Source: Tubiluchus corallicola
Taxonomy: Eukaryota > Animalia > Priapulida
Reading direction: 5' to 3'
Assembly (NCBI GenBank): GCA_030141605.1
Contig: JAQGDQ010000984.1
Location: 9,201-73,200 of the forward strand
DNA: 64,000 nucleotides
Part shown: positions 13,610 through 56,838 of the stretch, piece after piece
Layout of the letters: every line of letters starts with the position of its first letter
Numbering within the stretch: the first letter of the stretch is position 1
Made by a program: the position numbers and the translations under genes
The notes under the pieces: generated by a model
Told to the model about the DNA's origin: nothing
The model's input: only the letters and a program-made list of their open reading frames with translations
The model's database searches: none

Positions 13610-14842
13610 TATTTGTTTATTTACCAGTTGTTTGTTTATTTTGCTAAATATATTGTTTCATTTCCAGGCAACACTGCAATGCATGTTTACTTTACCAGCT
13701 GTGTTATTTTGCTAAATGTATCGTTTCTTTTCCAGGCAACACTGCAACGCTTGTTCATTTTGCTAAATGTATCGTTTCTTTTCCAGGCAACACTGCAACG
13801 CTTGTTCATTTTGCTAAATGTGTCGTTTCTTTTCTAGGCAACACTGCAACGCTTGTTCATTTTGCTAAATGTATCGTTTCTTTCCCAGGCAACACTGCAA
13901 CGCTTGTTTATTTTACCAGCTCTGTTTATTTTGCTAAACGTATCGTTTCTTTTCCAGGCAACACTGCAATGCTTGTTTATTTTGCTAAATGTATCGTTTC
14001 TTTTCCAGGCAACACTGCAACGCTTGGTTATTTTGCTAAATGTATCGTTTCTTTCCCAGGCAACACTGCAACGCTTGTTTACTTTACCAGCTCTTGTTTA
14101 TTTTGCTAAACGTGTCGTTTCTTTCCCAGGCAACACTGCAATGCTTGTTTACTTTACCAGCTATTTGTTTATTTTGCTAAATGTATCGTTTCTTTGCCAG
14201 GCAACACTGCAACGCTTGGTTATTTTACTAAATGTATCGTTTCTTTCCCAGGCAACACTGCAGTGCTTGTTTACTTTACCAGCTCTTGTTTATTTTGCTA
14301 AACGTGTCGTTTCTTTCCCAGGCAACACTGCAATGCTTGTTTACTTTACCAGCTATTTGTTTATTTTGCTAAACGTGTCGTTTCTTTCCCAGGCAACACT
14401 GCAATGCTTGTTTACTTTACCAGCTATTTGTTTATTTTGCTAAATGTATCGTTTCTTTGCCAGGCAACACTGCAATGCTTGTTTATTTTGCTAAACGTAT
14501 CGTTTCTTTTCCAGGCAACACTGCAACGCTTGGTTATTTTGCTAAATGTATCGTTTCTTTCCCAGGCAACACTGCAGTGCTTGTTTACTTTACCAGCTCT
14601 TGTTTATTTTGCTAAACGTGTCGTTTCTTTCCCAGGCAACACTGCAATGCTTGTTTACTTTACCAGCTATTTGTTTATTTTGCTAAATGTATCGTTTCTT
14701 TGCCAGGCAACACTGCAATGCTTGTTTATTTTGCTAAACGTATTGTTTCATTTCCAGGCGACACTGCAATGTTTGTTTACTTTACAAGTTCTTTGTTTAT
14801 TTTGCTAAATGTATTGTTTATTTTCCAGGCAACACTGCAATG
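13610..14842 (+). repeat. Tandem array (51-nt and 68-71-nt units) of the FEM1C intron/exon 2 junction, 20 acceptor copies
   Basis: Each unit has ttttgctaaa(t/c)g..tttc..ccag|gcaacactgca; 19 copies counted before the real acceptor at 14827-14828. Confidence 0.93.
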
Positions 14843-16186
14843 CACGACTGTGCCGAATCGGGCGCATTGAACATAATGAAATTACTTCTCACTCATGGTG
14901 CTAAGATGAGCCCCGACTCAAACGGAATGACCCCTCTGCTGGCCGCGGCCGTCACGGGACACACGGAAATCGTCGAGTATCTCATCACCCGGCCGGAGAT
15001 CAGCCGACTGGAGCACATCGAGGCGCTGGAGCTGCTCGGCGCCACGTTCGTGGACAAGAAGCGGGACATGTTGGGGGCGCTGCAGTACTGGAAGAGGTCC
15101 ATGGAGGAGAGGTTCTCCGAAGCGGCGCCTCCCATGCCGAAGCCCGTCACCATCTCGCAGATCGGCGCCTACGAGAACGTGCTGGAGGTACAGTCGCTGG
15201 ACCAGCTGGCGGATCTCATCTCCGATCCGGACGAGATGCGGATGCAGGCGCTGTTGGTGCGCGAGCGGATTCTCGGGCCCGCCCACCCGGACACGTCTTA
15301 CTACATCCGCTTTCGGGGAGCCGTCTACGCCGACATGGGCAACTTCCGGAAGTGCATCTCCCTGTGGATGTACGCGCTGGACATGCAACAGCGGCTGCAG
15401 GAACCTCTCGGACCGATGACCCAGAGCTCCTTCCTGTCCTTTGCGGAGCTCTTCTCGTTCATGATGTCCGACACGCGGTTCCACCTCCACGAAAAACCAA
15501 AAGTGGAGTTCGCCGACGTCATGTGCATCTTTCGGAAGAGCGTCACCGAAGTGGAGCGCGGAGCGGAGTACCTGCGAACGATCGTCCCGCCTTCCGCTCG
15601 CGCCGGCAACTGCCCGCTGGAGAAGGACACCGTCCACTTCACGCGAACGGTCATCATCACGCTCCACCTGATCTGCATCCTGTGTCACATCCAGCCGAAC
15701 ATGACGGAGGACGAGGAGCAGGAGATGAAGACGGCCGTCTACAGCTACGTTCACACCGAGCCGCGCGTCCACAACAGCTCCACGCTGCTCCACCTCGCCT
15801 GCAGTCGACAGAGCACCACCGTGGGGAAGTATCCGGTGTGCAAGTTTCCCTCCCTGCCCGTCGTGCAGCTGCTGCTGGAAGTGGGCGGGTCCCCGACCGC
15901 CGTGGACGGCGACGGCAACACCCCCCTCCACGTGGTGGCGAAGAACCACGTCCGCGAGCCGGAGATCATCAAGACTCTGCTGGAAGGCGGAGCTCACGTG
16001 GATACGTGCAATCTTCAGCGGCAGACATTCGTGGATCTTTTGCAACCCGGTACGGTACAAGAGATAGTCTCTCCACTGAGATACATGACATTGCAGTGTC
16101 TGGCTGCCAGACAGGTTAGAAAATACGGCTTACGATACAAAAACACGTTAACTAAGAGGCTAAGCGATTTCGTTGAACTGCATTGA
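14829..16186 (+). CDS. FEM1C: Fem-1 homolog (FEM1C/A-like) coding exon 2 to stop
   Basis: ttttccag|GC AAC ACT GCA ATG CAC completes KG-NTAMHDCAESG. Also contains ALELLGATFVDKKRD, DPDEMRMQALLVRERILGPAHPDTSYYIR and the C-terminal TLQCLAAR (VHL/BC-box) ..FVELH*. The joined CDS is 1902 nt (633 aa). Confidence 0.95.
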
Positions 16187-17173
16187 TTAGCATAATTTTG
16201 TTAAAGGAAAACCGGACGATTGTTTAGATAATTAGCAGAAGCACAAGTACCATTATACTTCAAACTAATATTATATGAGAAAAATTCAATATTGGGAACC
16301 CTGTGGATCTGGCACCCCATCCTAGATACGCCTTGAACTTGGTACAGTAAACTCTGCATAGCTGAAAATCGTACAACTCAAATTTTGCGTAACTCAAAGA
16401 ATTTCAGTTGAGCGGATGAAATCCTTCGTTTTTCTCACAAAAAAACTTTGCTTAACTCAAAATATGTAACTCAAAATTTCGCCTAACTCAAATAAAAAAT
16501 TATGGCTCATTTAATCAAAATACTTGTAATTTAATTTGCTCTAAAATGCAATTTATACTCTAGAAAAGCAAAAGTTGACGTGTATACGGTTTACGATACA
16601 AAAACACGCTAACTAAGAGGCTGAGCGATTTCGTTGAACTGCATTGATTAGCAATTAGCATGATTAGCGTGATTTTGTTAAAGGAAGACCGGACGATCAT
16701 TTAGACTCAATCTCATTTTAATTTACTGTCCAAAATATACATTTTACATGTCAAATGTAGACATGCGTTAACTCAAATGTAATTTTGTTAAAAGAAGACC
16801 GGACGATTGTTTAGATAATTAGCAGAAGGCTAACACAGAGTACCCATTTTACTTCAAAATAATATTATATGAGAAAAATTCAATATTGGGAACCCTGGCG
16901 GTTGACCGTCGAACTGGCCTTGTACCTGTCAGTTCAGTTGTGACGTGGTAGACAATTCGAGAGCTAAAGGTTAACACAGTGATAATTTGGAATTTGAATT
17001 AGTAAAACTTAAGATTTGCACAATTTTGCTGTATCACACTGAATGTTATACAGTAGCACTGTACTTCAATTTTCGCTTTCGCAAATGCATACAACACCCT
17101 CGTTGGATGTTTGTGCTGTTGAAAATCATGTTCACTTGTTACGTAATCACTAGCTGGGGCCGTTAATAATTAA

Positions 17174-18179
17174 TAAAGTAAAAATCGGACGATTGTTTAG
17201 ACTCAATCTCATTACTGTCCAAAATATAGGTTTTACATGTCAAATGTAGACCTGCGTTAACTCAAATGTAGATTTAGGTAATTCAAATGTGTCTTGGTAA
17301 CTCAAATGTAGACTTAGGTAGTTCAAATGTGTTAACAATGGTTTTCAAGAAATCTTAAGCATTTTTGGTAAGTCAAATGTAGGCACATGTCAAGTCAAAT
17401 GTCCTATGTCTACATTTGACTTACCTAAGTCACATTTGAGTTACCAAAACACATTCGAGATTCCTATGTCTACATTTGACTTACCTAAGTCACATTTTAG
17501 TTACCAAAACACATTCGAAATTCCTATGTCTACATTTAACTTACCTAAGTCACATTTGAACTTTCCTGTGTCTACATTTGACTTACCTAAGTCACATTTG
17601 AGTTATCAAAACACATTCAAAATTCCTATGTCTACATTTAACTTACCTAAGTCACATTTGAACTTTCCTGGGTCTACATTTGACGTGTAAAACCTATATA
17701 CATTTTCTTGTATATAAAAGTTAACAGTTAAATCTAAATAATTAGCTTGGAAAGTTAATTAACGGCAACCGAACACAGCTATTGCTTACATCAGAAACTA
17801 ACCACAGTTTGTGCAATGGCAGGCGTCTTCTCTTGCGTGTCAAGCTTGTTTGCATAAGTGTTACTGCTTAAATGCATGATGCCACGAAAACTGGGCTCTG
17901 CATCATATTGCGTCAGAAACTAACACTGCAGTTCATGATCATGGTTATCATGGTACCGCCTTCTATTTGTCAGCCACCCGAATGTGACAAAAAGGTACCA
18001 TTGCCAATCTTAGTAGCTTCACTGAGCCGCGCGTAACTTTTAAAGTTAAAATTTGAGTGTCCGAGGTAATTGTTATTTAATCTAAGCTTTGATTTAAAAT
18101 AAGCTATTGTAGTTTTCAATATTTTAGAGCATTCTTTATTCTGAACTCGTGTTTACACAATCATCCGGTTTTCTTTTAA
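17174..18179 (-). mobile_element. Kolobok/T2-like MITE, family B, with family D inserted at 17227-17696
   Basis: Reverse complement of 43994-44550, interrupted at a TA. Confidence 0.8.
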
Positions 18180-25415: not shown

Positions 25416-25544
<129 letters not shown>

Positions 25545-26683
25545 CTAAGACAAAGACATGACACGACCTTAACTCATATATCATTTATTTCTCATTACAC
25601 ATTTATAATAGTTTCGTGTACAATATATGGAGGGATGAGATTGACAAATTGCAAAAAACTCTGAAACAGGCAGGGGGTTTGGGGGCCACGTAGGAACCAG
25701 CAACAAATTGCAATTTTGTGACCATAGAGAGCCTCTAAGACTAAGTGGACTTAAAATATCAATTACCTTGTTTCATGCATAATTTAAAATAGCCAACTAT
25801 CAAGGATACATGATACCTAATTGTCTCAAAAACGCCTAAGTACTGGCCGCTCCTATGCAAAAGTATATAAAAACTGTCTGCAATTGACTCAAATAACTCC
25901 GCACAATCGATTCTATATTTTTATACATAGAGATATACACGTGGTTACACTGATGTACGTGATGTAAACAAAGTGACGGCCTGCCAACTAGCGGTCAGCT
26001 TGTGAAATAATGTACTGCGTCTGTAAAACTTTTCTCAACGAATTTACGCGATTTATAAAAATGACACTACTGGTCTTCCAAAAACTCGGAATTCCGCGTA
26101 TCCGCGGAAAATTCTCATCCCTGCTTTAAGTCATAAGTCATTTATTTCACCTCACACATTTACAATGGTTACATATACAATATCTAGTGAAAGGGCCTAC
26201 AATGAACATAATACAAATAGGAAATACTGCACAGGAAAAGCCTCAAACACTGTTCACTTATACACGAAGGTAAATGTGTTGCGGGTAATTCCGCGCACGA
26301 AATAGTATTGTGGGAGATTGAAAATGAAAACAAACAAAAAATAATTTCGACGCGAGTACGATATACGCATAAAATTGCTTAAAGTAACATAAGTTTGAGT
26401 GGAAAGTTTTTAGGGACATAGGTCAACATTTCCTTTTCTTCTCCTGATTTACGTTGACGCCACGTAATGGCCCGGCTGAACAGTATTAGTGGATATTTGG
26501 AATGAAGACAAACAAAAATTCCTTTTAACGCAAGTACGACATTGCGTTAAAGTAACATAAGTATAAAATTGCTATAAAGTAGTATAAGTTTGAGTGGAAA
26601 GTTTTTTGGGATGTAGTTTAACATGTTCCTCTGCCTCCCCTTTAAGAGATTACAATGATCACTCTTAATAATCAGATCAATCA

Positions 26684-28430
<1,747 letters not shown>

Positions 28431-28537
28431 TTGAATAACGTGATTTCGTTATTTTTATTCTGTTTGCAAAACCCAAGCGCAAAAAAACAAGCAAAGCTAA
28501 AAATACTCTCCTCCCAAAAATTTGCGTAACAACTCAC

Positions 28538-28645
28538 CCTCCAGAACCACTGAATAACCTTGTGATTGGCGAAGTATTCTCCTTTATACACGGTGTGGTC
28601 TCTCCAATCTTTCACATCAATGTCTCCCAGTCCGCACATCAACAA
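28538..28645 (-). CDS. NEDD4: NEDD4 HECT exon
   Basis: [36 protein letters not shown]; tttag / gtgagt. Confidence 0.95.
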
Positions 28646-28854
28646 CTAAAAAGAAAAACCGCACATTTTGAAAAACAACCAATCTCCAAGTGACAAGGAA
28701 TATTTTATGTTGTCCAAATTGACAGAAACCTTTACAATGTTTGAATAGTGATGGCAATAATACTGGCAATGGCAATGGCAATGGCAATAATGGCAAGACT
28801 ATTGGCATTCGCAATCTGAGTAGTGAAGTATCGTTTCTCTTTGTATGAGAAATC

Positions 28855-29340
28855 GTGACTAATTGTTTAATTCACAAGGTTCTTTCCTTATGACTAACTA
28901 ACTCTAATTATTTGTCTGACTAGATTCCTCTTGTGAGACTAATCAAGACTAATTATTTTGTCTGATTGGATTCCTCTAGTGAGATTAATCAAGACTAATT
29001 GTTTCATCTGACTAGGTTCATCTTGTGAGACTAAACAAGACTAATTATTTTGCATGACTAGATTCCTCTTGTGAGACTAATCGAGACTAATTATTTCGTC
29101 TGACTAAGTTCCCTTTGTAGACTAATCAAGACTAATTATAGACTAATCAAGACTAATTATTTTGTCTGACTAGATTCCCTTTGTTAGACTAATCAAGACT
29201 AATTATTTTGTCTGACTAGATTCCTCTTGTGAGACTAATCAAGACTAATTATTTCGTCTCACTATGTTCCTTTTGCCAGACTAATCAGGACTAATTAATT
29301 TGTCTGACTAGATTAGCTTTGTGCAACTAATCAAGACGAA
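28855..29340. repeat. Degenerate minisatellite, unit about 45 nt
   Basis: gactaatcaagactaattattttgtctgactagattcctcttgtga repeated. Confidence 0.85.
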
Positions 29341-29678
29341 GTATTTCGAGACCGCAACACATATTTCCATGAACCAAACTGACTGCCTGGCAAGTTAGTA
29401 TACAGATGCACGGATAACACAAAGAATTATTTACAAAGTAAAATCACAAACAAAAAATTTAATTAATGACGATTCTTATTAACAAAGCTGAAGGCTTTAG
29501 CATAATCTAATAAACCTGTTTTAATTAAATAAATATTTAGCAGCTTAAAAATGCTTGATTTTATTCAAGCTCCGATATCCGATTGACAAACGAAACGGTC
29601 TCTATAATTCCTCCAAGTTTCTTGACCGGGCAGTTTGCAAATGGACGGGTCAATTACAGAAATGTACCAACTACTCAC

Positions 29679-29799
29679 CTCCACTTCGTTCTCGTCAAAA
29701 ATTTGAAGAAGAGCCAAGGGCACGACGTCATTAAAGCCGTCACAAAATGCGTTCATCTGAGGTTTGATTCTGTCCACGAACCTCCATTGCATCACCAAC
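29679..29799 (-). CDS. NEDD4: NEDD4 HECT exon
   Basis: LVMQWRFVDRIKPQMNAFCDGFNDVVPLALLQIFDENEVE; cacag / gtgagt. Confidence 0.95.
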
Positions 29800-31015: not shown

Positions 31016-31184
31016 CCCAAAGTGAGGAAAACACTATTCTTCTATCAAGCTAAAAAAATTCGATTGGAAATTTTATATCACTTAGCTTTTAGTGTCAAAA
31101 CAATTTCATTCCAAAGTGAGTGCATTAAGCGACATCTACTGTACTTAAAAGTAAACAAGTAAAAAATGTCGGTTTATCACTTAC

Positions 31185-40545: not shown

Positions 40546-40604
40546 CTGTCCAGCAACTTTTGGGTCTGACAATCGGGGATCTTCCCATTGAGTATGTCTG
40601 CTAT
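40546..40604 (-). CDS. NEDD4: NEDD4 exon (end of last WW)
   Basis: (N)SRHTQWEDPRLSDPKVAGQ; tttag / gtatgg. Confidence 0.92.
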
Positions 40605-40961
40605 CTAAAAAAAGTTCAACAAACTTAGTTTCCGAAAGCGGAAAGCGTTACGCATTTTAAAAAACGCTGTTTCGAAACGGTTTCCAGTATCAAATTTTTA
40701 AAGCAGCTGTCAACACATGCCCCAAGCTTGCGCTATTGAGGCTGATTATCTAGATGAGGCACCGAACCATCCGGAGCATCTCGGCCACGTTAGGATGCGA
40801 AAACAGCCACTCTTAATGTGATGAATGCACACAAGAGAAGGCACAACAGAACAAACTTTATGCAACGAGCAACGAGACAGGCGGTCACTCATCAAATTAC
40901 TGCACAGGTTCAGCATTGCTTGCATTATTATGAATAGTGTAGGAATAGCATTTATACATAC

Positions 40962-41016
40962 TGTGGTCGATGTAGAAAACTCTCCCGTCCGTATGCACCC
41001 TTTCCTCCCAGCCGGC
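40962..41016 (-). CDS. NEDD4: NEDD4 exon (last WW domain)
   Basis: AGWEERVHTDGRVFYIDH; aacag / gtatgt. Confidence 0.93.
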
Positions 41017-41717
41017 CTGTTAAAATGTAGAACAAACTTGTTAACACATGTTAAACACATTGGACATTCACGTTTTAGCATCAAATTATCAAGAAAATGT
41101 TCAAAAAATACTAAAAATTTAATTTCATAACCCAGTATGCATCTTTTGTGCTAGAAACTAGTACTGCAATTGTAAAAATGCTTATATTTTCAAACTCAGA
41201 TAGTAGCTGCTGGAAGCAGTTCATTCTGCTTCGGGTTTTTTCTGTTACCAAGCCCAGATCTTCGTCAGGAAGAGCCATCTACAGGATTTAAACATAACTT
41301 CAATGTGTTCTTACAAAGTCTGTAGCAACTAACATTTGTGCGGCTGCTAAGTGTTTTGTAGAGACGTGATCAAAAACAATGGCTGACTTTAACAGTGATT
41401 TTCCCAAGATTATGTTTTTCAGTGTGCATAGCCTGCACCTCAACTTCAACGTGGATTATCTCAGCTTAGAAATAACATAGAGCGATGAACTTGGTATCAA
41501 AAAGATCCTCATGAAATGGAGATTCGGGATACGTGAATAACTAGAAAAGCTTAATTGCCGACTTATTGACGTTTTTGCCATGCAAACAACATACACAAAC
41601 GGACCTCAACTTCAATGTGGATTATCTCAGCTTAGAAATAACATAGAGCGATGAACTTGGTATCAAAATGATCCTCATGAAATGGAGATTCAGAACATGT
41701 GAATAACTAGAAAATAA

Positions 41718-42045
41718 CTAGTGAACCAAGAACATTTGAAATATATCGGTAGGGAACCACGAACATTTGCAGCTTAACGGTGTGAACCAAGAACATTTGA
41801 ACTTTATCGGTTCCGAACCAAGACATCTAAAGCATATCGGTATTAATCCAAGAACATTTGAAGCCTATTGGTAGTGAACTAACAACATTTAGAACTTATC
41901 GGTAGTGAACCAAGAGCATATGAATGAAGCACATCGGCAGTGAACCAAAAAAAAATTGAAACTTATCGGCAACAAACCGAAAACATTTGAAACTAACCGG
42001 TACTGGACCAAGAACATTGAAAAAACTTACCGGTAGTGGACCGAG
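41718..42045 (-). repeat. Degenerate about 30-nt repeat (about 10 copies) derived from the donor junction of exon 42031-42180
   Basis: Plus-strand units gaacatttgaaacttatcggtagtgaaccaa align with the real junction gaacattgaaaaaacttaccggtagtggacc. Confidence 0.78.
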
Positions 42046-42180
42046 GTCATTTGTTAATGACCTAGGCCGTTTAAAGCCTTCTTGTTCTGCTTCGTTCAAG
42101 CCAGCGGCAACTTGATCGTGGTGATGATGATGGTGGCGACGACCCACTCTGGGACTCGGCGTGTGTGTTCTGGGGTCATT
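42031..42180 (-). CDS. NEDD4: NEDD4 exon (inter-WW linker)
   Basis: NDPRTHTPSPRVGRRHHHHHHDQVAAGLNEAEQEGFKRPRSLTNDLGPLP; ttcag / gtaagt. Confidence 0.92.
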
Positions 42181-42397
42181 CTGAAAATTTCAGTGATCAA
42201 AAATAAAAAAACAAAATAAGGAAAAGTAAACAAAGCAGTAAACAAAGTAGTAAACAAGTAGCAAAAAAGTTGAAAACTATGATTTCGGCAAAAACAGCTA
42301 CCGGCAAGAATCGAACCTACGACCCACAGATGAAAATTATTACAAGAAATCTTCAACAAGTTTCGCAATATCAAACTATTGTTTTGTACAAATTTAC

Positions 42398-42853
42398 TTA
42401 ACCCTTTCACACCCGTGGGATACGAGAAAATTTTCTGCCTTTAAAATTAATAAAATTTTAAAACTGACAGTTATTTGACCTGTTAATAGTTATTTTGATT
42501 TAAGCCAATAACGATAGACTAAAAATGGTGATAAAATGGCAAACTAGAAAATCTACATAGCATAAAAACTGCGCAAGGTACAGTACTTTAGAGACGACTT
42601 TGTACAGATCAGCATGGCGTGCATACTAAATGTCTTAAATACTTTAAAAAATTATCAGCAGTTGCAAAATGAAGCACATTTTATGCTTCCATTGAATCCC
42701 ATTGTATCCCGTGGGATACAGGCTATATTTAGCACGCGGGCACAGGTAGAAAAAATAATTATTATGCGTAAACAAGATGGACATACTGAACAACAGTACC
42801 AAGTCAAAAAAATTTTTCTTATTACAAAAATAATTTGGGACTGAAAGGGTTAA
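42398..42853. mobile_element. piggyBac-like MITE, family G (copy at 53808-54284, fragment about 2590-2769)
   Basis: TTAA + ccctttca ... tgaaaggg + TTAA. Confidence 0.82.
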
Positions 42854-42973
42854 CAAAAATTAAACTATTTCATCTACAAGTTAGCATTACTAAGCTGGGG
42901 CGTATCTACATTTCAAAAAACTTTACTAGTTTACAACACTAGCAGTGGCATATCCAGGAGCGAACAAACGTAC

Positions 42974-43189
42974 CCAAGTCGTCGTCTTCGAATTGTGATC
43001 GATGAAAAAAATTCGACCGTTTTGGGCCATCTGCATCGCCCAGCCGGTGGGGAGCGGTTCCTCTTCCGGATTGGCCATTCCCATTTCCAGCGCCTGCAGT
43101 ATCACGCTCGAGTCCGTCATGGGAACCACAGGGGGCTCTTGCGCAGCCGTAGCTTCTCTGTTTCTAGAATTTTCCACGGAATCGCGAGT
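42974..43189 (-). CDS. NEDD4: NEDD4 exon (second WW domain seen)
   Basis: [40 protein letters not shown]; ttcag / gtacgt. Confidence 0.92.
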
Positions 43190-43419
43190 CTGAAAAACGC
43201 ACGTTCTTTCATTACTCGATGACCTATCAGTGACCTTGACATGCAGACAAAATTCGTTTGACCTTTGACTGTACGGTGATCTGGGGCCGCTTTCGCAAAG
43301 TCGTCACTAACCTAACGACGTCGTTATTACATTCATTTAACTATTAATAATGACGATGCTAAGTCAGTGACGGCTTTGTGAAACTGCGCCAAGGTCAAGG
43401 TCAAGCTGTTATCCAAAAG

Positions 43420-43810
43420 AAATGTTCAACACTCAACACAGAAATATTCAACACCCAATGTTCAACACTCAACACAGAACTGTTCAACACTCAATGTTCA
43501 ACACTCAACACAGAAATATTCAACACTCAATGTTCAACACTCAACACAGAAATATTCAACACTCAATGTTCAACACTCAACACAGAACTGTTCAACACTC
43601 AATGTTCAACACTCAACACAGAAATATTCAACACTCAACACAGAAATGTTCAACACTGAACACAGAAATGTTCAACACTGAACACAGAAATGTTCAACAC
43701 TCAATGTTCAACACTGAACACAGAAATGTTCAACACTCAATGTTCAACACTCAACACAGAAATGTTCAACACTCAATGTTCAACACTCAACACAGAAATG
43801 TTCAACACGC
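43420..43810. repeat. Short-unit satellite (tgttcaacactcaa / cacagaaa)
   Basis: Direct reading of the sequence. Confidence 0.9.
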
Positions 43811-43993
43811 AAAGAAACTTTTCAAACGATATTGTATCGAATTCAAGAAAGCCTGCGGTGCAAGTTAAAATAATTTACTTCATTTCATGTCGAGTTTAAA
43901 GGAAAAATCAACCTTGAAAAGCGTTCAAGGTATTTTACTATACACTGAGAAATGTTGAAATTATGCCTAATATATGCGAGCAACATGCCTTGC

Positions 43994-44550
43994 TTAAAGG
44001 AAAACCGTATGATTGTATAAACACGAGTTCAGAATAAAAAATGCTGTGAAATATTGAAAACTACAATAGCTTATTTTAAATCAAAGCTTAGATTAAATAA
44101 TAATTACCTCGGATACTCAAATTTCGTTAAACTTTCAAAGCTACGAGCGGCTCAGTGAATTTACTAAAATTGGCAGCGACGCCTTTTTGTCACATGCACA
44201 TGGCCGACAAATAGAAGGCGGTACCGTGATAACCATGATCATGAACTGCAGTGTTAGTTTGTGACGTCATGTGATATAGAGCTAATTTTCCGTGACATCA
44301 TGCTTTTGAACAGTACTGTAACGCCTATGCAAATGTGCTTGATGCGCAAGGGAAGACGCCTGGCATTGCACAAACTGTGGTTAGTTTCTGACGTAAGCAA
44401 TAGCTGTGTTCGGTTGCCGTTAATTATTTTTCTAAGCTAATTATTCAAATATAAAGAACAATTGTTAACTTTTACAGGCAAGAAAATGTATATTTTGGAC
44501 AGTAAATTGAAATGACGTCGAGTCTAAACAATCGTCCGGTCTTCCTTTAA
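43994..44550 (+). mobile_element. Kolobok/T2-like MITE, family B (copy at 50404-51450, fragment 62815-62965)
   Basis: TTAA + aggaaaaccgtatgattgt ... acaatcgtccggtcttcct + TTAA. TTAA TSD with AGG termini is the T2/Kolobok pattern. Confidence 0.82.
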
Positions 44551-44889
44551 ACGGGCAACAAAAACATTTAAAATACCCATATCTCACAGCAAGTGCACCT
44601 CGCTGCGAGCACTTTTTAAAAAATCACGTAAGCTGGTGGCCAGCGTTAATGAACGTGTAAGAAAACTCCCGCACTTCACTCAGACCTTCCGCTATGCTAC
44701 CGACAGGTCAGTTAGCTTATAGAGTTCAGTTTATGCTACCGACAGGTCAGTTAGCTTATAGAGATCAGTTTAGCTGTTAACATTTCTTAGTTTTAGTTTT
44801 AAATTTGCTTTCCGGTTGAGAATGTTCACCCCTGAGTTTAGTGTTTTTCAAACAGGGTATAGAATAACAATGGTGTTACCAGTAACCGC

Positions 44890-45319
44890 TTAACCCTTTC
44901 GCTACGGAAGCCAGCACACTGCCACCCATGCTTTTCATGCAGGGGACGGAAGGTGGCACACTGCCACCCATGCTCAGCACTAAGCACAGTCAGTCACCCA
45001 GGACTGTTTATTTCACTGTTACAATAATGCAAAAACATTGTAGAAAAGCTTAACAGCCGTGGGATTGGTGTTGCCTCACAACAGGTAATGCTAACCAGCC
45101 AATCAGCGTCTGAAGCCAGGTGCATTCCATAATTCTGTACTGTATGTTATGTTCTCATGCAAAATCACTTGTAGATCGTTGATCAGACGTATGTTTAGTT
45201 GACTGTTCTGCATTCTTATAAAACGATTGCGTATCATGGATTCGTATTGTGTCTTTTGTGAAAACTGGTTTCTAAATAAAAGTGCATGCTTATCTATGAA
45301 GGTGTGTGTGCGTGCGTGC

Positions 45320-45374
<55 letters not shown>

Positions 45375-45488
45375 TTTGCTCCCATGTATGTGATGTCACC
45401 GATAGTTAGGCTAGCCCGCCATTAATTAAGATTTAATCATTAATTTAAGATTTTCTTCAAACCAGCAACTATGTAGTGAAAGGGTTAT
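44890..45488. mobile_element. piggyBac-like MITE whose right end is part of the 64-nt array unit
   Basis: ttaa ccctttcgctac ... gtagtgaaaggg ttat; contains a (GT)n tract at about 45302-45371. Confidence 0.65.
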
Positions 45489-48400
45489 AAATGAGTGAGG
45501 CAAAGAGGTACCTGAGTCGTGAACCTCTGCAACTATGTAGTGAAAGGGTTATAAATGAGTGAGGCAAAGAGGTACCTGAGTCGTGAACCTCTGCAACTAT
45601 GTAGTGAAAGGGTTATAAATGAGAGAAGCAAAGAGGTACCTGAGTCGTGAACCTCTGCAACTACGTAGTGAAAGGGTTATAAATGAGTGAGGCAAAGAGG
45701 TACCTGTGTTGTGAACCTCTGCAACTACGTAGTGAAAGGGTTATAAATGAGTGAGGCAAAGAGGTACCTGAGTCGTGAACCTCTGCAATTATGTAGTGAA
45801 AGGGTTATAAATGCGTGAGGCAAAGAGGTACCTGAGTCGTGAACCTCTCCAACTATGTAGTGAAAGGGTTATAAATGAGTGAGGCAAAGAGGTACCTGTG
45901 TTGTGAACCTCTGCAATTATGTAGTGAAAGGGTTATAAATGAGTGAGGCAAAGAGGTACCTGAGTCGTGAACCTCTCCAACTATGTAGTGAAAGGGTTAT
46001 AAATGAGTGAGGCAAAGAGGTACCTGTGTTGTGAACCTCTGCAACTATGTAGTGAAAGGGTTATAAATGAGTGAGGCAAAGAGGTACCTGTGTTGTGAAC
46101 CTCTGCAATTATGTAGTGTAAGGGTTATAAATGAGTGAGGCAAAGAGGTACCTGTGTTGTGAACCTCTGCAACTATGTAGTGAAAGGCTTATAAATGAGT
46201 GAGGCAAAGAGGTACCTGTGTTGTGAACCTCTGCAATTATGTAGTGAAAGGGTTATAAATGAGTGAGGCAAAGAGGTACCTGTGTTGTGAACCTCTGCAA
46301 TTATGTAGTGAAAGGGTTATAAATGCGTGAGGCAAAGAGGTACCTGTGTTGTGAACCTCTACAACTATGTAGTGAAAGGGTTATAAATGCGTGAGGCAGA
46401 GGTACCTGAGTCGTGAACCTCTGCAACTATGTAGTGAAAGGGTTATAAATGAGTGAGGCAAAGAGGTACCTGTGTTGTGAACCTCTGCAACTATGTAGTG
46501 AAAGGGTTATAAATGAGTGAGGCAAAGAGGTACCTGTGTTGTGAACCTCTGCAATTATGTAGTGAAAGGGTTATAAATGAGTGAGGCAAAGAGGTACCTG
46601 TGTTGTGAACCTCTGCAATTATGTAGTGAAAGGGTTATAAATGAGTGAGGCAAAGAGGTACCTGTGTTGTGAACCTCTGCAACTATGTAGTGAAAGGCTT
46701 ATAAATGAGTGAGGCAAAGAGGTACCTGTGTTGTGAACCTCTGCAACTATGTAGTGAAAGGGTTATAAATGAGTGAGGCAAAGAGGTACCTGTGTTGTGA
46801 ACCTCTGCAATTATGTAGTGAAAGGGTTATAAATGAGTGAGGCAAAGAGGTACCTGTGTTGTGAACCTCTGCAATTATGTAGTGAAAGGGTTATAAATGC
46901 GTGAGGCAAAGAGGTACCTGTGTTGTGAACCTCTACAACTATGTAGTGAAAGGGTTATAAATGCGTGAGGCAGAGGTACCTGAGTCGTGAACCTCTGCAA
47001 CTATGTAGTGAAAGGGTTATAAATGAGTGAGGCAAAGAGGTACCTGTGTTGTGAACCTCTGCAACTATGTAGTGAAAGGGTTATAAATGAGTGAGGCAAA
47101 GAGGTACCTGTGTTGTGAACCTCTGCAATTATGTAGTGAAAGGGTTATAAATGAGTGAGGCAAAGAGGTACCTGTGTTGTGAACCTCTGCAACTATGTAG
47201 TGAAAGGCTTATAAATGAGTGAGGCAAAGAGGTAAATGTGTTGTGAACCTCTGCAATTATGTAGTGAAAGGGTTATAAATGAGTGAGGCAAAGAGGTACC
47301 TGTGTTGTGAACCTCTGCAATTATGTAGTGAAAGGGTTATAAATGCGTGAGGCAAAGAGGTACCTGTGTTGTGAACCTCTACAACTATGTAGTGAAAGGG
47401 TTATAAATGCGTGAGGCAGAGGTACCTGAGTCGTGAACCTCTGCAACTATGTAGTGAAAGGGTTATAAATGAGTGAGGCAAAGAGGTACCTGTGTTGTGA
47501 ACCTCTCCAACTATGTAGTGAAAGGGTTATAAATGCGTGAGGCAAAGAGGTACCTGTGTTGTGAACCTCTGCAACTATGTAGTGAAAGGATTATAAATGC
47601 GTGAGGCAAAGAGGTACCTGAGTCGTGAACCTCTGCAATTATGTAGTGAAAGGGTTATAAATGCGTGAGGCAAAGAGGTACCTGTGTTGTGAACCTCTCC
47701 AATTATGTAGTGAAAGGGTTATAAATGCGTGAGGCAAAGAGGTACCTGTGTTGTGAACCTCTGCAATTATGTAGTGAAAGGGTTATAAATGAGTGAGGCA
47801 AAGAGGTACCTGTGTTGTGAACCTCTGCAACTATGTAGTGACAGGCTTATAAATGAGTGAGGCAAAGAGGTAAATGTGTTGTGAACCTCTGCAATTATGT
47901 AGTGAAAGGGTTATAAATGAGTGAGGCAAAGAGGTACCTGTGTTGTGAACCTCTGCAATTATGTAGTGAAAGGGTTATAAATGCGTGAGGCAAAGAGGTA
48001 CCTGTGTTGTGAACCTCTACAACTATGTAGCGCAAGGGTTATAAATGCGTGAGGCAGAGGTACCTGAGTCGTGAACCTCTGCAACTATGTAGTGAAAGGG
48101 TTATAAATGAGTGAGGCAAAGAGGTACCTGTGTTGTGAACCTCTCCAACTATGTAGTGAAAGGGTTATAAATGCGTGAGGCAAAGAGGTACCTGTGTTGT
48201 GAACCTCTGCAACTATGTAGTGAAAGGGTTATAAATGCGTGAGGCAAAGAGGTACCTGAGTCGTGAACCTCTGCAATTATGTAGTGAAAGGGTTATAAAT
48301 GCGTGAGGCAAAGAGGTACCTGTGTTGTGAACCTCTCCAATTATGTAGTGAAAGGGTTATAAATGCGTGAGGCAAAGAGGTACCTGTGTTGTGAACCTCT

Positions 48401-50186
48401 GCAATTATGTAGTGAAAGGGTTATAAATGAGTGAGGCAAAGAGGTACCTGTGTTGTGAACCTCTCCAACTATGTAGTGAAAGGGTTATAAATGCGTGAGG
48501 CAAAGAGGTACCTGTGTCGTGAACCTCTGCAACTATGTAGTGAAAGGGTTATAAATGAGTGAGGCAAAGAGGTACCTGAGTCGTGAACCTCTGCAACTAT
48601 GTAGTGAAAGGGTTATAAATGAGTGAGGCAAACAGGTTCCTGAGTCGTGAACCTCTACAACTATGTAGTGAAAGGGTTATACATGAGTGAGGCAAAGAGG
48701 TACCTGAGTCGTGAACCTCTCCAACTATGTAGTGAAAGGGTTATAAATGAGTGTGGCAAAGAGGTACCTGAGTCGTGAACCTCTGCAATTATGTAGTGAA
48801 AGGGTTATAAATGAGTGAGGCAAAGAGGTACCTGTGTTGTGAACCTCTCCAACTATGTAGTGAAAGGGTTATAAATGCGTGAGGCAAAGAGGTACCTGTG
48901 TTGTGAACCTCTGCAACTATGTAGTGAAAGGATTATAAATGCGTGAGGCAAAGAGGTACCTGAGTCGTGAACCTCTGCAATTATGTAGTGAAAGGGTTAT
49001 AAATGCGTGAGGCAAAGAGGTACCTGTGTTGTGAACCTCTCCAATTATGTAGTGAAAGGGTTATAAATGCGTGAGGCAAAGAGGTACCTGTGTTGTGAAC
49101 CTCTGCAATTATGTAGTGAAAGGGTTATAAATGAGTGAGGCAAAGAGGTACCTGTGTTGTGAACCTCTGCAACTATGTAGTGAAAGGCTTATAAATGAGT
49201 GAGGCAAAGAGGTAAATGTGTTGTGAACCTCTGCAATTATGTAGTGAAAGGGTTATAAATGAGTGAGGCAAAGAGGTACCTGTGTTGTGAACCTCTGCAA
49301 TTATGTAGTGAAAGGGTTATAAATGCGTGAGGCAAAGAGGTACCTGTGTTGTGAACCTCTACAACTATGTAGCGCAAGGGTTATAAATGCGTGAGGCAGA
49401 GGTACCTGAGTCGTGAACCTCTGCAACTATGTAGTGAAAGGGTTATAAATGAGTGAGGCAAAGAGGTACCTGTGTTGTGAACCTCTCCAACTATGTAGTG
49501 AAAGGGTTATAAATGCGTGAGGCAAAGAGGTACCTGTGTTGTGAACCTCTGCAACTATGTAGTGAAAGGGTTATAAATGCGTGAGGCAAAGAGGTACCTG
49601 AGTCGTGAACCTCTGCAATTATGTAGTGAAAGGGTTATAAATGCGTGAGGCAAAGAGGTACCTGTGTTGTGAACCTCTCCAATTATGTAGTGAAAGGGTT
49701 ATAAATGCGTGAGGCAAAGAGGTACCTGTGTTGTGAACCTCTGCAATTATGTAGTGAAAGGGTTATAAATGAGTGAGGCAAAGAGGTACCTGTGTTGTGA
49801 ACCTCTCCAACTATGTAGTGAAAGGGTTATAAATGCGTGAGGCAAAGAGGTACCTGTGTCGTGAACCTCTGCAACTATGTAGTGAAAGGGTTATAAATGA
49901 GTGAGGCAAAGAGGTACCTGTGTTGTGAACCTCTCCAACTATGTAGTGAAAGGGTTATAAATGAGTGAGGCAAAGAGGTACCTGTGTTGTGAACCTCTCC
50001 AACTATGTAGTGAAAGGGTTATAAATGCGTGAGGCAAAGAGGTACCTGTGTCGTGAACCTCTGCAACTATGTAGTGAAAGGGTTATAAATGAGTGAGGCA
50101 AAGAGGTACCTGAGTCGTGAACCTCTGCAACTACGTAGTGAAAGGGTTATAAATGAGTGAGGCAAAGAGGTACCTGAGTCGTGAAC
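45466..50186 (-). repeat. 64-nt minisatellite (about 74 copies) containing the donor junction of NEDD4 exon 50174-50354
   Basis: Sense unit gtacctctttgcctcactcatttataaccctttcactacatagttgcag-aggttcacgactcag; the array runs directly into the exon end. Confidence 0.95.
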
Positions 50187-50354
50187 ACTTCATCTCCTCC
50201 GGCTCTCATGTTAAGTCCGGAACCAAAAGAGAACCGCATCTGATCGGCCGAATCGTCCTGGCTGATATGCCTGCGCTGTCGAAATTCCATGGCGGCCGCT
50301 GCTTCCGCACGACGCTGCGTGGCGGCGCCACCAGACGGGGTTGAATTCGAAGCC
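50174..50354 (-). CDS. NEDD4: NEDD4 exon (linker after WW1)
   Basis: ASNSTPSGGAATQRRAEAAAAMEFRQRRHISQDDSADQMRFSFGSGLNMRAGGDEVFTTQ (the FxxRRHIS motif of the NEDD4 linker); ttttag / gtacct; phases fit both neighbours. Confidence 0.88.
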
Positions 50355-50461
50355 CTAAAAAGAGGAATAAGCTAGGATTAGAGGAGTAACAGTCTTGCTG
50401 TTTTTAAAAGAAACCCGGGCGATTGTGTAGACACGAGTTCAGAATAAAGAATGCTCTAACC

Positions 50462-50944
50462 CAGGGGTGTGCAAATTATCTGACTAGCCGGGCCACATTA
50501 AACTTTCCCACAATTCCTGCGGGCCACAGGCAGTTTGATCAAGGAGCCAAGTACAGAAAGGCCTAATAACGATTTTTTTTGCATCCGACCTGCGTACATC
50601 ATTACTAGTACACTCAAGAAACCATTTTAGAAGTTATTAAAATTTATATTACAAACCATATGTTTCTACTTTCAGGACAGATAGTGGTAATTTCATTACA
50701 ATGCATATTAGTAATGTGTATCACACAGTCTGTGTAGTACAGTGACATTAAGCTACAACCGTCTTGTAAGGGTTAATGGCATCCGATCTAGTAGAAAAAA
50801 CTACCCGCACCATCTTTGGGATCGTGACACGGACTTCAGCTGCATACACTCAATTAATCGCCCAGGCCGCACTTTCATTAGGTTGACAAATCTCTTCACG
50901 GGCCGCACAAATTCTCTCGGCGGGCCGCAATTTGCACACCCCTG
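50462..50944 (-). mobile_element. hAT-like MITE, family A, nested in a Kolobok-like MITE
   Basis: Same TIRs; TSD ctctaacc / ctctaaaa. The empty site gctctaaaa is seen in other copies of the host element (e.g. near 62864). Confidence 0.88.
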
Positions 50945-52049
50945 CTCTAAAACGTTGAAAGCTACAATAGCTTATTTTAAATCAATGCTTAGATTAAATA
51001 ATAATTACTTTGGATACTCAAATTTTGTTAAACTTTCAAAGCTACGAGCGGCTTAGTGAATTTACTAAGATTGGCAACGGCGCCTTTTTGTCACGTTCAC
51101 GTGGCTGACAAATAGAAGGCAGTACCGTGATAACCATGATCATGAGCTGCCGTGTTAGTTTCTGACGTCGTGTGATGTAAAGCCCATTTTTGCGTGACAT
51201 CATGCAATTAAGCAGTACTGTAACACTTACGCAAACATGCTTTTGAAGCGTAAGGGAAGATGCCTGCCATTGCACAAACTGCACTTTCTGACGTAAGCAA
51301 TAGCTGCGTTCGGTTGCCATTAATTAACTTTCTAACCTAATTATTCAAATATAAGAAACATTTGCTAACTTTTATAGGCAAGAAAATGTATATTTTGGAC
51401 AGTAAATTAAAATGACATTGAGTCTAAACAATCGTCCAGTATTCCTTTAAATGGGCAACAGAAATATTCCTTAAAATATCCCATATCTCACGGCAAGCGA
51501 ACCTCAGCCGTTCTTGGCGTAAGTCGTTTGAAACAAGTTCTGATAACACTCAGTAAAGGTTGAAAAAATAATCAGAGCATTCGTAGCACATATGTCAGTA
51601 ACTAAGTACAATTTAAAACTACTGTATCTTGTCAATAAGATTAAAAATAAGTTTTCTCGTTAGTGAGTGGTGCACCTTGGCGGTGATTTTACCAATTGTT
51701 GAAAACATTTTAAATAATTAAAAATTTTCTTTTCTAGTTACATAAGTCTTTGCAGCAGATAAGCGAAATGCTAAGTAATAAAACTTTGCATTGAAAGTTT
51801 TTAGGGACATAATTTAACATTGCCTTTTCTTCCCTTGATTTACGTTGTGTGTTTATGACGTCATGTAATGGCGCGGTCGGAACAGGAAAACAAACAACAA
51901 TTCTTTCAACGCGAGTACGATATACGCGTAAAATTGCTATAAATTAACATAATTTTTTTCAGACGATTTTTCTGGAAGCAACTTCCTTTTCTTGTACTTT
52001 AAGCGCCCCGAAGCATGGTTGGTAAACAGATGGGCGATCGGGATAGTTT

Positions 52050-52650
52050 TAAATGCCGCACTTTTCTAGTTATGCATCCCGGCTGAAGAAGACCATGAGT
52101 GACTTCATTGGTACAGCGAATCCAAAACACGAAAGAACAAATACAGTTAGCCAAACTACTATGAAGGTCGCCCATTCCGTTACTGAACGGCATAACATCG
52201 CTTAACTTGAAAAGAGGATCATAGGAAAAACTGCTCTGGAATGGTTTCAAATACCGCACTTTTCTGGTGAAGTGAATCCAAACGTAAAAGAACAAATACA
52301 GTTCACCAAGCTACTATTGGTGTGCAGGTCACCCATTCGATTACTGGACAGCATAACATCGCTTAACTTGAAAAGAGGATCATAGGAAAAACTGCTCTGG
52401 AATGGTTTCAAATACCGCCCTTTTCTGCTGCAGCAAATCCAAACGTAAAAGAACAAATACAGTTCACCAAACTACTATTGGTGTGAAGGTCACCCATTCC
52501 GTTACTGAACGGCATAACATCGCTTAACTTGGAAAAAGGATCATAGGAAAAACTGCTCTGGAACGGTTTAAAATACCGCACTTTTGAAGTGCAGAGAATC
52601 CAAGCGTGAAGGTCACCCATTCTGTTACTGAACGGCATAACACTGCTTAA
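52050..52650. repeat. About 160-nt tandem repeat, 3-4 copies
   Basis: cataacatcgcttaacttgaaaagaggatcataggaaaaactgctctggaa repeated. Confidence 0.85.
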
Positions 52651-52659
52651 CTGTAATCA

Positions 52660-52905
<246 letters not shown>

Positions 52906-53028
52906 CTAGCGAAAAGATGGCAACTCTCATTCACGAACAAAATTTAGTTAATTTAAAAAACATTAACAATAATCAATACCTCTTAACCCTTTCATACGAA
53001 AATTTTGCTTTATGCGAACATACTGCCT

Positions 53029-53729
<701 letters not shown>

Positions 53730-55054
53730 TACTTAGTACACAATTAGAACACGATTACTAAGTTTGCTCACTGCTAGGCATTTGTTTATAATTGTCTGTT
53801 TAAAAGTTTAACCCTTTCACACCCGTTGTATCCCGTGGGATACGAGGATATTTTCTGCCTTTAAAACTAATAAAATTTTAAAACTGACAGTTTTTTGAAC
53901 TGTTAATAGTTATTTTGATTTAAGCCAATAACAATAGACTAAAAATGGTGATAAAATGGCAAACTAGAAAATCTACATAGCATAAAAAACAGCGCAAGGT
54001 GCAGTACTTTAGATACGACATTGTACAGATCAGCATAGCATACACACTAAATGTCTTAAATACTTTAAAAAATTAACAGCAGTCGCAAAATGAAGCACAT
54101 TTTTTGCTTTTGTTGTGTTTTTAAAAAAGTCGGACTTTGTTTTTTGCAATGTTGTGTATGTAGGTAGGTAGAATGAAGGTAGAAAATAATTATTATGTGT
54201 AAACAAGATGGACATACTGAACAAAAGTACCAAGCCAAAAAATGTTTTCTTATTAAAAAAATAATTTGGGGCTGAAAGGGTTAATGATTATTATCAATTT
54301 CTACAACTTTTGCTAATAACTTAGGCACAACAAGGTGACAATTAGTACCTTACTGATTTTTTAATACATCGTAACATAGGTCAAACACTTCGTTCTAATG
54401 CTAATGAACAAATTAGTTGACATCAGCCAAAATGCTTCGTAAGGTGTAGTTCACTCACTACACAGCATCAGGAATGGGGGCTCGCAAAAAGCCAGGTTCA
54501 AACAACTTTCGAGCGAATGTTTTTTTTCTTGTTCACTTGATTCTGGCTGGCGCTGAATTTCTTATAACTTTTTTTAGATAAAATGGTGTTTTTTGTTTCT
54601 TTCAAAGCAACTTTTATTATTTCCAGTGTCAACATGGCTTAAAGAATTTTAATTTTGTAACCAAGGTGGCTCCATCTAGCTGAAAACTTTTAAGTGCGAG
54701 CTTTGACCCAGTTATATTGTTATTATACTGTTCTGTAGTACATGTGTACGATATGTATTGAGCAAACTAGCGAAATTTATCATTAGATATATGCCACGCC
54801 GACGTGAGTTCATTTCTATTCAATTTTGATTTATTCACTGATATTTTTTATTGATGTATTGACTGTCAATGTAACTAAACTATGTAACTTTTCATAAAAT
54901 TAGCCAATATCAGTCAATTTCTATATCTACATGCACTTCAACTTAATGCCTCTCAGAGACACCAATTACCATCACAAAATCTACAGTTTTAGGTTGGCCA
55001 AGCTCGGCATCGAGCCAGTACCGATACAGAAGAGCCAAGCACTTTATTACTCAC

Positions 55055-55175
55055 TCGTTCATTGCACTCTTCGATCAGCTCATCGAGTACCACGTTTAAA
55101 TCGGCTTCCTCCTCTTCGTCGTCCCGTAAAAATCCAACTGACATTCGCAAGTGACCCTTGACCTTTGACCTGGCA
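55055..55175 (-). CDS. NEDD4: NEDD4 exon (end of C2)
   Basis: (S)ARSKVKGHLRMSVGFLRDDEEEEADLNVVLDELIEECNER; tctag / gtgagt. Confidence 0.88.
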
Positions 55176-56114
55176 CTAGAGATGAAAATGTGACCAATTA
55201 ATTACAAGCACTAATTAACTAATCAAGTACTTACGATCTTAATTCAGAGACGGCCGTCCTGCCGATTTTCTCAGCTAAAAATTTTCCAGTGACCCTTGAC
55301 CTTTGACCTGCCAATTTTCTCAGCTAGAAATTTTTCTCTCGGCTAATTGGTTAGCCATACGTGGGTTACATAAGGCAAGAGAGAGGCCCTGCTACTTCCA
55401 TGATTAGCTATTGATCAATAATTATTGAAAGTTTAAAATCATTCACAAGCAAAGGTATTTGGATAGTGTTGAATTGTAACCAAAAGGTCCGAGGTTCAAA
55501 TCTACGATCGGCCACAAATTTTTTTACACTTCTTTCCTTTCGGTCGAGCTTATTTTGAAAATTTCAATCAGTTATAGAAACACTAATTATCATATATACA
55601 TTTAAAATTACAAATTCTTAACAAAAAGGACAGGCATTTGGTTATTTTAGATGAGCGAAAAGCAGAGATTTGGTTTGTTTTCTGCTGGTCAGTGGAACCT
55701 GCATAGGTACTGTGGAACTCCAGCGTCCCCTGTTTTCATTCAATATTATCGTTAATATTTAATATAAGTCTTTTGTGCAGTTCCTTCTTTATGCTTGTAC
55801 GGAACCCATGCATTTATTAATTTTAACTACGAGCCACCACTGCTCAATTGCAATACAATAATCACCAGAAGACAATAGATGGGTACTAATCAACAATTCG
55901 CTGACACACAGCGCAACAGAAACAAGACAGCGCCAGACAAAAGAAATTCCAGACACACATCAATTTTTGGATGAGTAAGAGCCATCAACAAGTCAAAACA
56001 AACAAAATTACAAAATACAAAATCAGCAAACAGACGGGTGAATAGAAAAATGATGCACAAATGACAGATGGACACACAGACAGACGCGTGAATGGACGAA
56101 CATTAATACGATAC

Positions 56115-56218
56115 CTTCGGGGTCGAAGAATGTGGTTTTTGTATGGCACGGGACCGTTCTGCTCCAACGGCACAAAATTCAGGAGCAGTTCAACCTGCCC
56201 CAGAAAATCGTCCCTCGT
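56115..56218 (-). CDS. NEDD4: NEDD4 C2 exon
   Basis: TRDDFLGQVELLLNFVPLEQNGPVPYKNHILRPR; tccag / gtatcg. Confidence 0.93.
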
Positions 56219-56444
56219 CTGGAAACAAATGCAAAATTAAAAATCAATATTCAATTCAATGGTTTCCAACAAAAACGTGAAACAATTCCTGCTGGTCAAC
56301 AACTCTATCACATGTAATAGTAGTATTACTTAACAACTGTTTGTGGTGTGTTGGGAATTTTGCAACACTATATATAACACTTGGGAGTTTTAGCAGAAGT
56401 AATTCATTACCATGGAGAATAATTAGCGTGTGTTTCAGGTGTAC

Positions 56445-56797
56445 GTTTTCGCATCACAACCGAAACGGTTAACTGAAACGGTTCACTCAAACTAATTTCA
56501 CGCAAAGATCTTACAATTCTAAATGTCTTACCAATCTATTTTCGCAACACAACCGAAACGGTTCACTCAAACTGATTTCGCGCAAAGATCTTACAATTCT
56601 AAATGTCTTACCAATCTATTTTCGCAACACAACCGAAACGGTTCACTCAAACTGATTTCGCGCAAAGATCTTATAACTCTAAACGTCTTACCAATCTGTT
56701 TTCGCATCAGAACCAAAACGGTTAACTGAAACGGTTCACTCAAACTGATTTCGCGCACAGATCTTATAACTCTAAATGTCTTACCAATCTATTTTCG
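56445..56797 (-). repeat. 80-93-nt repeat carrying three extra copies of the donor of exon 56785-56838
   Basis: tcttaccaatct(a/g)ttttcg near 56526, 56606, 56686 and at the real junction near 56779. Confidence 0.9.
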
Positions 56798-56838
56798 TCG
56801 AAAACTTCGAAAAGCAACCGATTCTTGTCGGGTATGAC
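56785..56838 (-). CDS. NEDD4: NEDD4 C2 exon
   Basis: VIPDKNRLLFEVFDENRL; tccag / gtaaga. Confidence 0.93.

What the first reader, a model, noticed from the sequence alone, without database searches (positions are those of the whole stretch)
13610..56800. Recurrent tandem amplification of exon-intron junctions (splice-site satellites) in two unrelated genes, at several stages of decay
Seen: at least seven independent duplications whose unit straddles or copies a real exon boundary. These are the FEM1C acceptor x20 (13610-14842), NEDD4 acceptors x~30 (26870-28430) and x2 (37531-37585), NEDD4 donors x~10 (41718-42045), x~74 (45466-50186) and x4 (56445-56797), and an exon-start copy (55288-55310). 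The units are unrelated in sequence, the extra copies always lie on the intron side, and each carries roughly 10-25 nt of exon. Homogeneous arrays keep GT/AG intact, while the more diverged ones have lost them (CAG>CAA, GT>AT). Established: single VNTRs overlapping splice sites are known, and tandem duplication of AG|GT is a proposed route to intron gain. Inference: this many cases among about 50 junctions suggests either a mutational process focused at splice junctions or very strict exon definition that tolerates decoys, followed by selection that knocks decoys out.
Basis: partly seen in the sequence, partly recalled or inferred. Interest (0 to 1): 0.9.

Follow-up and report, generated by a model that had tools for sequence, protein, structure and literature searches.

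The report
Splice-junction "mirage" repeats, FEM1C and NEDD4
In two neighbouring genes of an invertebrate, six exon edges with their splice signals have been copied 1 to 73 times into the adjacent intron, a repeat type already known from lancelets and humans ("mirages") that is likely a tolerated by-product of a duplication-prone genome, and it is only about three times commoner here than chance.

Summary
The arrays are real. Gene models for FEM1C, NEDD4 and part of ATAD3 give 48 junctions. Six have straddling copies: the FEM1C acceptor (19 decoys, all AG), NEDD4 donors (73, about 9 and 3 decoys) and NEDD4 acceptors (30 and 1). The seventh case is best read as a 138-nt acceptor duplication that lost 89 nt including the splice site.

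This is a known kind: amphioxus "mirages" and the human F7/CBS/LMNB2/PDGF minisatellites. This scan has noted it in several other genomes.

The excess is modest. 6 of 48 junctions compare with 2.2 expected (P about 0.02), and 5 of 23 arrays with 1.2 (P 0.005). The window was also picked after the fact. Other arrays also sit near intron ends.

Copies lying on the intron side follows from geometry. Splice dinucleotides are not significantly more mutated than neighbours (P 0.24-0.30), and the most numerous decoys remain intact, so selective knock-out is unsupported. The open interest is as a natural test of splice-site choice, especially 19 intact acceptors in front of FEM1C's last coding exon.

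The parts
7114..7657 (+). FEM1C coding exon 1
13614..14843 (+). FEM1C acceptor mirage: 19 decoy copies (51-nt unit, often plus 17-20 nt) of branch-point-like motif, pyrimidine tract, AG and 15 nt of exon; the real acceptor is the last copy
14829..16186 (+). FEM1C last coding exon (60% GC)
25416..62066 (-). NEDD4-family E3 ligase (C2, WW, HECT): 21 exons, here lettered A-U in transcript order; the gene begins beyond the window
26848..28430 (-). Exon T acceptor mirage: 30 copies of a 51-nt unit, consensus differs from the real site at 10 of 31 shared positions; AG shifted by +1 in all copies
28428..28469 (+). Inverted partial unit (42 nt, 86%) capping the far end of the exon T array
37529..37588 (-). 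Exon M acceptor duplicated once (36-nt period); the decoy would be in frame and open (+12 aa)
41719..42045 (-). Exon I donor mirage: about 9 diverged decoys, 30-35-nt units; only the nearest keeps GT, and it is in frame (+11 aa)
   Evidence: covered by a contig of run X2, and 26 nt longer in run X3
45465..50186 (-). Exon G donor mirage: 73 decoys of a 64-nt unit with 13 nt of exon, 96.6% mean identity, an 11-unit block repeated; 69 keep GT
55150..55336 (-). Exon E: a 49-nt upstream unit equals the ends of a 138-nt unit spanning the acceptor, minus an internal 89 nt holding the splice site(s)
56445..56797 (-). Exon C donor mirage: 3 decoys, 80-93-nt units, 13 nt of exon, GT kept
36825..37425 (-). 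Weak candidate eighth case: a 140-nt x4 array 16 nt from the exon M donor whose unit junction shares 12 nt with the end of exon M; may be chance

Best explanation
These are 'mirage' minisatellites: tandem copies of real exon-intron boundaries that likely began as ordinary local duplications in a duplication-prone genome and likely persist because splicing keeps using the one copy attached to the intact exon. Steps: (1) a 36-138-nt segment is duplicated locally, probably by slippage or template switching (inferred from the inverted cap on the exon T array and the microhomology-bounded exon E event). (2) If it spans a junction, the copy joined to the whole exon is necessarily the exon-side one, so extra copies fall in the intron (geometry). 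(3) The real site wins: for donors, by first-site selection as shown for human F7; for acceptors, likely through enhancers in the GC-rich exon, which decoys carry only 12-26 nt of (inferred). (4) Unequal exchange expands the array (repeated blocks of variant units are shown). (5) Copies decay by ordinary mutation spread through concerted evolution. The roughly threefold excess at junctions is likely the tail of a broader tendency of arrays to sit near intron ends, where mobile elements are scarce, inflated by picking this window.
For: Straddling units and copy counts. 79 clusters of local duplication away from junctions; background 4.5%. Non-straddling intronic arrays are also near intron ends: mean relative distance 0.26, n=13, P 0.001, weakening to 0.37, n=10, P 0.08 after removing dispersed repeats. 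Dispersed repeats cover 4% of the first 50 intron nt versus 47-49% beyond 200 nt. Use of any FEM1C, G, C or T decoy would give a stop or frameshift (0 of 19, 73, 3 and 30 in-frame and open), yet most decoys are intact. No significant excess mutation at GT/AG. The exon I array is 26 nt longer in a contig of another sample, as expected of a VNTR. P0001 shows an insertion-free FEM1C junction in a close relative. Run X5, a roughly 92% identical relative, has a contig joining exons H and I, and its per-bin depth fits use of the real exon I donor (81 nt implied, 80 predicted, 113 if the decoy were used; a weak inference). Precedent: PMC3087553, PMC3902484, PMC1557585.
Against: Junction rate is 12.5% versus 3.0% for non-repeat intron 25-100 nt from junctions (P 0.003), which favours something junction-specific. 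In all three acceptor cases every decoy scores below the real site on a small 24-site matrix (0 of 19, 0 of 30, 0 of 1 equal or higher). Both old arrays have altered core sites, and the exon E copy lost its splice site, which fits selection against decoys. It is unknown whether the relatives behind P0001 and X5 carry the arrays, so correct splicing of these alleles is inferred, not shown.
Confidence: 0.6

Rival explanations
1. A mutational process is focused on splice junctions (for example repair or template switching at R-loops, at the GC step of exon edges, or templated by pre-mRNA), so duplications are born there preferentially.
For: 5 of 17 locally born arrays straddle versus 0.9-1.4 expected (P 0.001-0.009). 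6 of 48 versus 1.45 expected from the nearest non-repeat intron DNA. Exons are 52-60% GC against about 35% for introns. The pattern recurs in other genomes of the scan (unchecked notes).
Against: No significant excess over the 100-250-nt bin (P 0.17-0.22). Only repeats with two or more copies in the window could be masked, so expectations are underestimates. The window was chosen for this pattern. Units contain intron sequence, so spliced mRNA was not the template.
Confidence: 0.15
2. There is no excess at all. Random duplications in a repeat-rich genome plus selection of a striking window explain the count.
For: Expected 2.2 of 48 versus 6 observed is only P 0.02 before any correction for window picking. 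The whole-array shuffle gives P 0.80.
Against: All six seed-based nulls give P of 0.034 or less. Non-straddling arrays are independently skewed to intron ends.
Confidence: 0.15
3. The decoys are functional or under selection: they tune expression through unproductive splicing, give in-frame isoforms (+11 aa at exon I, +12 aa at exon M), or are purged when leaky.
For: The only GT-retaining exon I decoy and the exon M decoy are in frame and open. In human CBS and 6-16, nearby pseudo-sites are used (PMC1557585 introduction). The exon E copy lost its splice site.
Against: No significant core-site bias. GT>AT in the exon I array can be one mutation spread to 7 copies. 91 intact decoys in three arrays would be deleterious if used. 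Units are unrelated in sequence, length and copy number.
Confidence: 0.07
4. The arrays are assembly artefacts.
For: The large arrays were not checked against reads. The F7-type and amphioxus literature notes mis-assembly of such arrays (PMC3087553).
Against: Units carry structured variants (26 distinct units among 73). A 382-nt contig of a second run of the same sample spans the exon I array with 0 substitutions and 1 gap, and another sample holds it too.
Confidence: 0.03

Closest known systems
Amphioxus 'mirage' minisatellites (Adh3, globins BflGb6/BflGb9, troponin C, PGBD5). Read: passages of PMC3087553 and PMC3902484. The original Adh3 paper (Canestro 2002) was not held and is known only as cited there.
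   Same: [quoted passage not shown]
   Different: Different animal lineage (closest named FEM1C is Priapulus caudatus, 62-67%; not an identification). Higher copy numbers (up to 74). Six cases within 43 kb.
Human donor-spanning minisatellites: F7 intron 7 (37 bp), CBS intron 13, 6-16, LMNB2, PDGF. Read: PMC1557585 abstract, introduction and discussion.
   Same: The first unit spans the exon-intron boundary, with identical pseudo-donors downstream. In F7, LMNB2 and PDGF only the authentic site is used.
   Different: All are donor-side. The upstream-first rule shown there cannot explain the three acceptor cases here, where the last copy must be chosen.
Variable internal tandem repeats at exon-intron boundaries in human segmental duplications. 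Read: passages of PMC2812944.
   Same: Minisatellites at boundaries.
   Different: Those alter gene structure or create introns; no new intron or changed protein is seen here.

Membership tests
Mirage minisatellite | Tandem repeat whose unit spans a genuine exon-intron boundary of the host gene | tested here: met
   Six junctions. Five lie at boundaries continuous with homologous proteins; the exon G donor rests on frame and GT only.
Mirage minisatellite | Extra copies reiterate splice signals, many but not all intact | tested here: met
Mirage minisatellite | Normal mRNA is still made from the authentic site | tested here: inconclusive
   Only relatives: P0001 and X5 contigs. Whether they carry the arrays is unknown.
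Mirage minisatellite | Length instability between alleles | tested here: inconclusive
   One contig of run X3 is 26 nt longer across the exon I array. Other arrays untested.
Mirage minisatellite | Concerted evolution within the array | tested here: met
   Shared consensus changes versus the real site in all five arrays; an 11-unit block repeated in the exon G array.
Intron gain by tandem duplication of AG/GT | A new intron is defined between duplicated sites | tested here: not met
   Copies extend existing introns; models need no new intron.
Transposon-borne satellite | Unit has dispersed homologues elsewhere | tested here: not met
   None of the five arrays has a dispersed match within the window; the rest of the genome was not available.

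The most novel reading that the evidence does not exclude
In this lineage, minisatellites are preferentially born at or retained next to exon edges genome-wide, so about one junction in eight carries decoys. Splice sites would then act as a general nursery for intronic satellites. The spliceosome would pick the last of 20 near-identical complete acceptor modules in front of FEM1C's last coding exon, which upstream-first scanning cannot explain, giving a large natural series for measuring exon definition and the decay of decoys.
Probability: 0.25. Interest if true: 0.6.

Novelty: new member of a known kind. Interest (0 to 1): 0.3.

Why it matters
The origin of mirages is described as unclear in PMC3087553, and my four searches on such repeats listed no genome-wide test of enrichment. 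A dense set with donors and acceptors at several ages makes two questions testable: whether duplications are biased to junctions, and how the true site is picked among identical ones. Such arrays can also mislead gene annotation. On present evidence they are a tolerated by-product, not a regulatory system.

Tried and rejected
No whole genome is held, so no genome-wide permutation could be run. No RNA holder was listed for FEM1C exon 2; this says nothing about expression. Run X6 showed only repeat-derived pieces in the rows displayed. Laying contigs on 39850-43400 was swamped by dispersed repeats, and most table rows were not shown, including any I-to-J joint. X5's lack of cover over the exon I array is not used as evidence. 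The whole-array shuffle was rejected as the right null because it counts expansion after the seed event, but its result (P 0.80) is reported. Two of the six seed-based nulls mix transposon-borne arrays with masked sequence (P 0.034 and 0.023) and are less consistent than the other four. The six mirage arrays were left out of the control set, and controls were every 8th of 38,150 kept positions (4,769). The apparent similarity between exon S and the far end of the exon T array was rejected: it is an inverted array unit. The splice-site matrices come from only 24 donors and 24 acceptors and are rough. No earlier findings exist for this genome or its look-alikes. The Canestro 2002 paper was not held. 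No supplements were opened; the mirage alignments in PMC3087553's additional files could refine the comparison.
Full report
Locus. The window holds the 5' end of ATAD3 (- strand, three exons; name recalled from the protein sequence, not from a search), FEM1C (+ strand, two coding exons) and most of a NEDD4-family ligase (- strand). I built the NEDD4 model by hand: 21 exons, all AG/GT, one open frame to the stop, 55-57% identical to arthropod NEDD4 proteins, with no gaps at conserved junctions. FEM1C gives 633 aa, 94.5% identical to an unnamed protein P0001 and 67% to Priapulus caudatus. The organism is an unidentified invertebrate. No genome is held. There are 48 junctions in all.

Observation. 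Tandem Repeats Finder lists 85 rows over the window. Aligning each junction's 44-mer to its own intron flank picks out six junctions (scores 36-72, next 24): the FEM1C acceptor, NEDD4 donors of exons C, G and I, and acceptors of exons M and T. FEM1C has 19 decoys with 19 AG. G has 73 with 69 GT. C has 3 with 3 GT. I has 8 by script (1 GT, 7 AT) and a ninth by eye. T has 30, in which the in-register AG is replaced but an AG stands one base downstream in 30 of 30. M has 1. The seventh case, at exon E, is a 49-nt unit matching both ends of the adjacent 138-nt segment that spans the acceptor. The simplest readings are a straddling duplication followed by an 89-nt deletion, or a single template switch. 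The exon G donor lies in a linker without homologue support.

Artefact check. A 382-nt contig from a second run of the same sample covers the exon I array with no substitution and one gap. A contig from another sample and study (X3) holds the array 26 nt longer. The G array has 26 distinct units among 73 and a repeated 11-unit block. The large arrays were not checked against reads.

Chance. Collapsing each array to one unit gives 5 of 23 against 1.2 (P 0.005), or 5 of 17 locally born arrays against 0.9-1.4 (P 0.001-0.009). Applying the junction scan to 4,769 control positions gives a background of 4.5%, so 2.2 of 48 are expected against 6 (P 0.02). By distance from the junction the background is 5.6% (25-100 nt; 3.0% without dispersed repeats), 7.9% (100-250 nt; P 0.17) and about 3.4% beyond. 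Non-straddling intronic arrays are themselves near intron ends (n=13, P 0.001; n=10, P 0.08 after masking), and dispersed repeats avoid the first 50 nt (4% versus 47-49%). So the excess is about three- to fivefold, depends on the null, rests on six events, and comes from a window picked for the pattern.

Decoys. G and C decoys match the real donor at the scored positions (69 of 73 and 3 of 3). Acceptor decoys score lower on a rough matrix (FEM1C median 9.4 versus 11.8), within the range of real acceptors. Every FEM1C, G, C and T decoy would give a stop or frameshift; the nearest I decoy and the M decoy would add 11 and 12 residues in frame. Core dinucleotides are not significantly more changed than other unit positions (5 of 10 versus 59 of 174, P 0.24; consensus 2 of 10 versus 18 of 174, P 0.30). 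The test has low power, but the loss seen in the two old arrays is what their overall divergence predicts. Copies lying on the intron side is geometry: after a tandem duplication across a junction, only the exon-side copy is attached to a whole exon.

Splicing evidence. It is indirect. P0001 has no insertion at the FEM1C junction. Run X5 (same species label, about 92% identical) has a depth-20 contig joining exons H and I, and its bin depths match one contig covering exons I, J and K only (81 nt implied for the exon I bin, 80 predicted, 113 if the +33 decoy were used). Whether these relatives carry the arrays is unknown.

Mechanism. Shown: straddling units, concerted evolution, block expansion, an inverted cap on the T array. 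Inferred: origin by slippage or template switching; survival because the exon-attached site is chosen; neutral decay. For donors the choice has experimental precedent in human F7, where pseudo-sites are functional but only the most upstream is used (PMC1557585). For acceptors that rule would pick a decoy, so exon-dependent selection must be invoked (general knowledge of exon definition; not tested here).

Known kind. Tandem repeats spanning exon-intron boundaries are named mirages in amphioxus, at both 5' and 3' boundaries, length-variable and reported not to disturb splicing (PMC3087553; PMC3902484). Human donor-side cases are listed in PMC1557585, and PMC2812944 covers boundary repeats that alter genes. 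Unchecked notes of this scan report the same in annelids, molluscs, a sea urchin, a shark and a camelid. My searches (listings only, apart from the four papers named) showed no genome-wide enrichment test.

Verdict. A real, dense, clean example of a known repeat type. The junction-focused and selective-knock-out readings are not established. Interest 0.3.

Noticed in passing
window 55176-55323 (- strand): A strong GTAAGT donor at 55234 lies 59 nt upstream of the exon E acceptor, and the sequence before it reads in frame into exon E. This may be an unannotated alternative or first exon, for example of a C2-less NEDD4 isoform; no in-frame ATG was found.
   Followed up: partly
window 36825-37425: The junction of a 140-nt x4 array shares 12 nt with the end of exon M. 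It could be a donor duplication that lost the donor by a 29-nt deletion, or chance.
   Followed up: partly
introns across the window: Non-straddling arrays and microsatellites lie 16-260 nt from junctions, while dispersed repeats fill intron middles.
   Followed up: yes
window 6836-7114: ATAD3 and FEM1C start codons are head-to-head, about 280 nt apart, suggesting a shared bidirectional promoter.
   Followed up: no
window 1888-2404: A 34-nt x15 array built from the end of a dispersed repeat that also occurs near 9640 and 52000.
   Followed up: partly
window 16123-16186 and about 16584-16650: The end of the FEM1C coding sequence including the stop codon appears copied about 460 nt downstream, in the presumed 3' UTR (seen).
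   Followed up: no
window 7114-7657 versus 14829-16186: FEM1C exon 1 is 43% GC and exon 2 is 60% GC; the first exon of ATAD3 also looks AT-richer than its second.
   Followed up: no
run X5: Listed as probably DNA, but it has an exon-exon joint and exon-matched depth, so it behaves like RNA from a lineage about 8% diverged under the same species label.
   Followed up: partly
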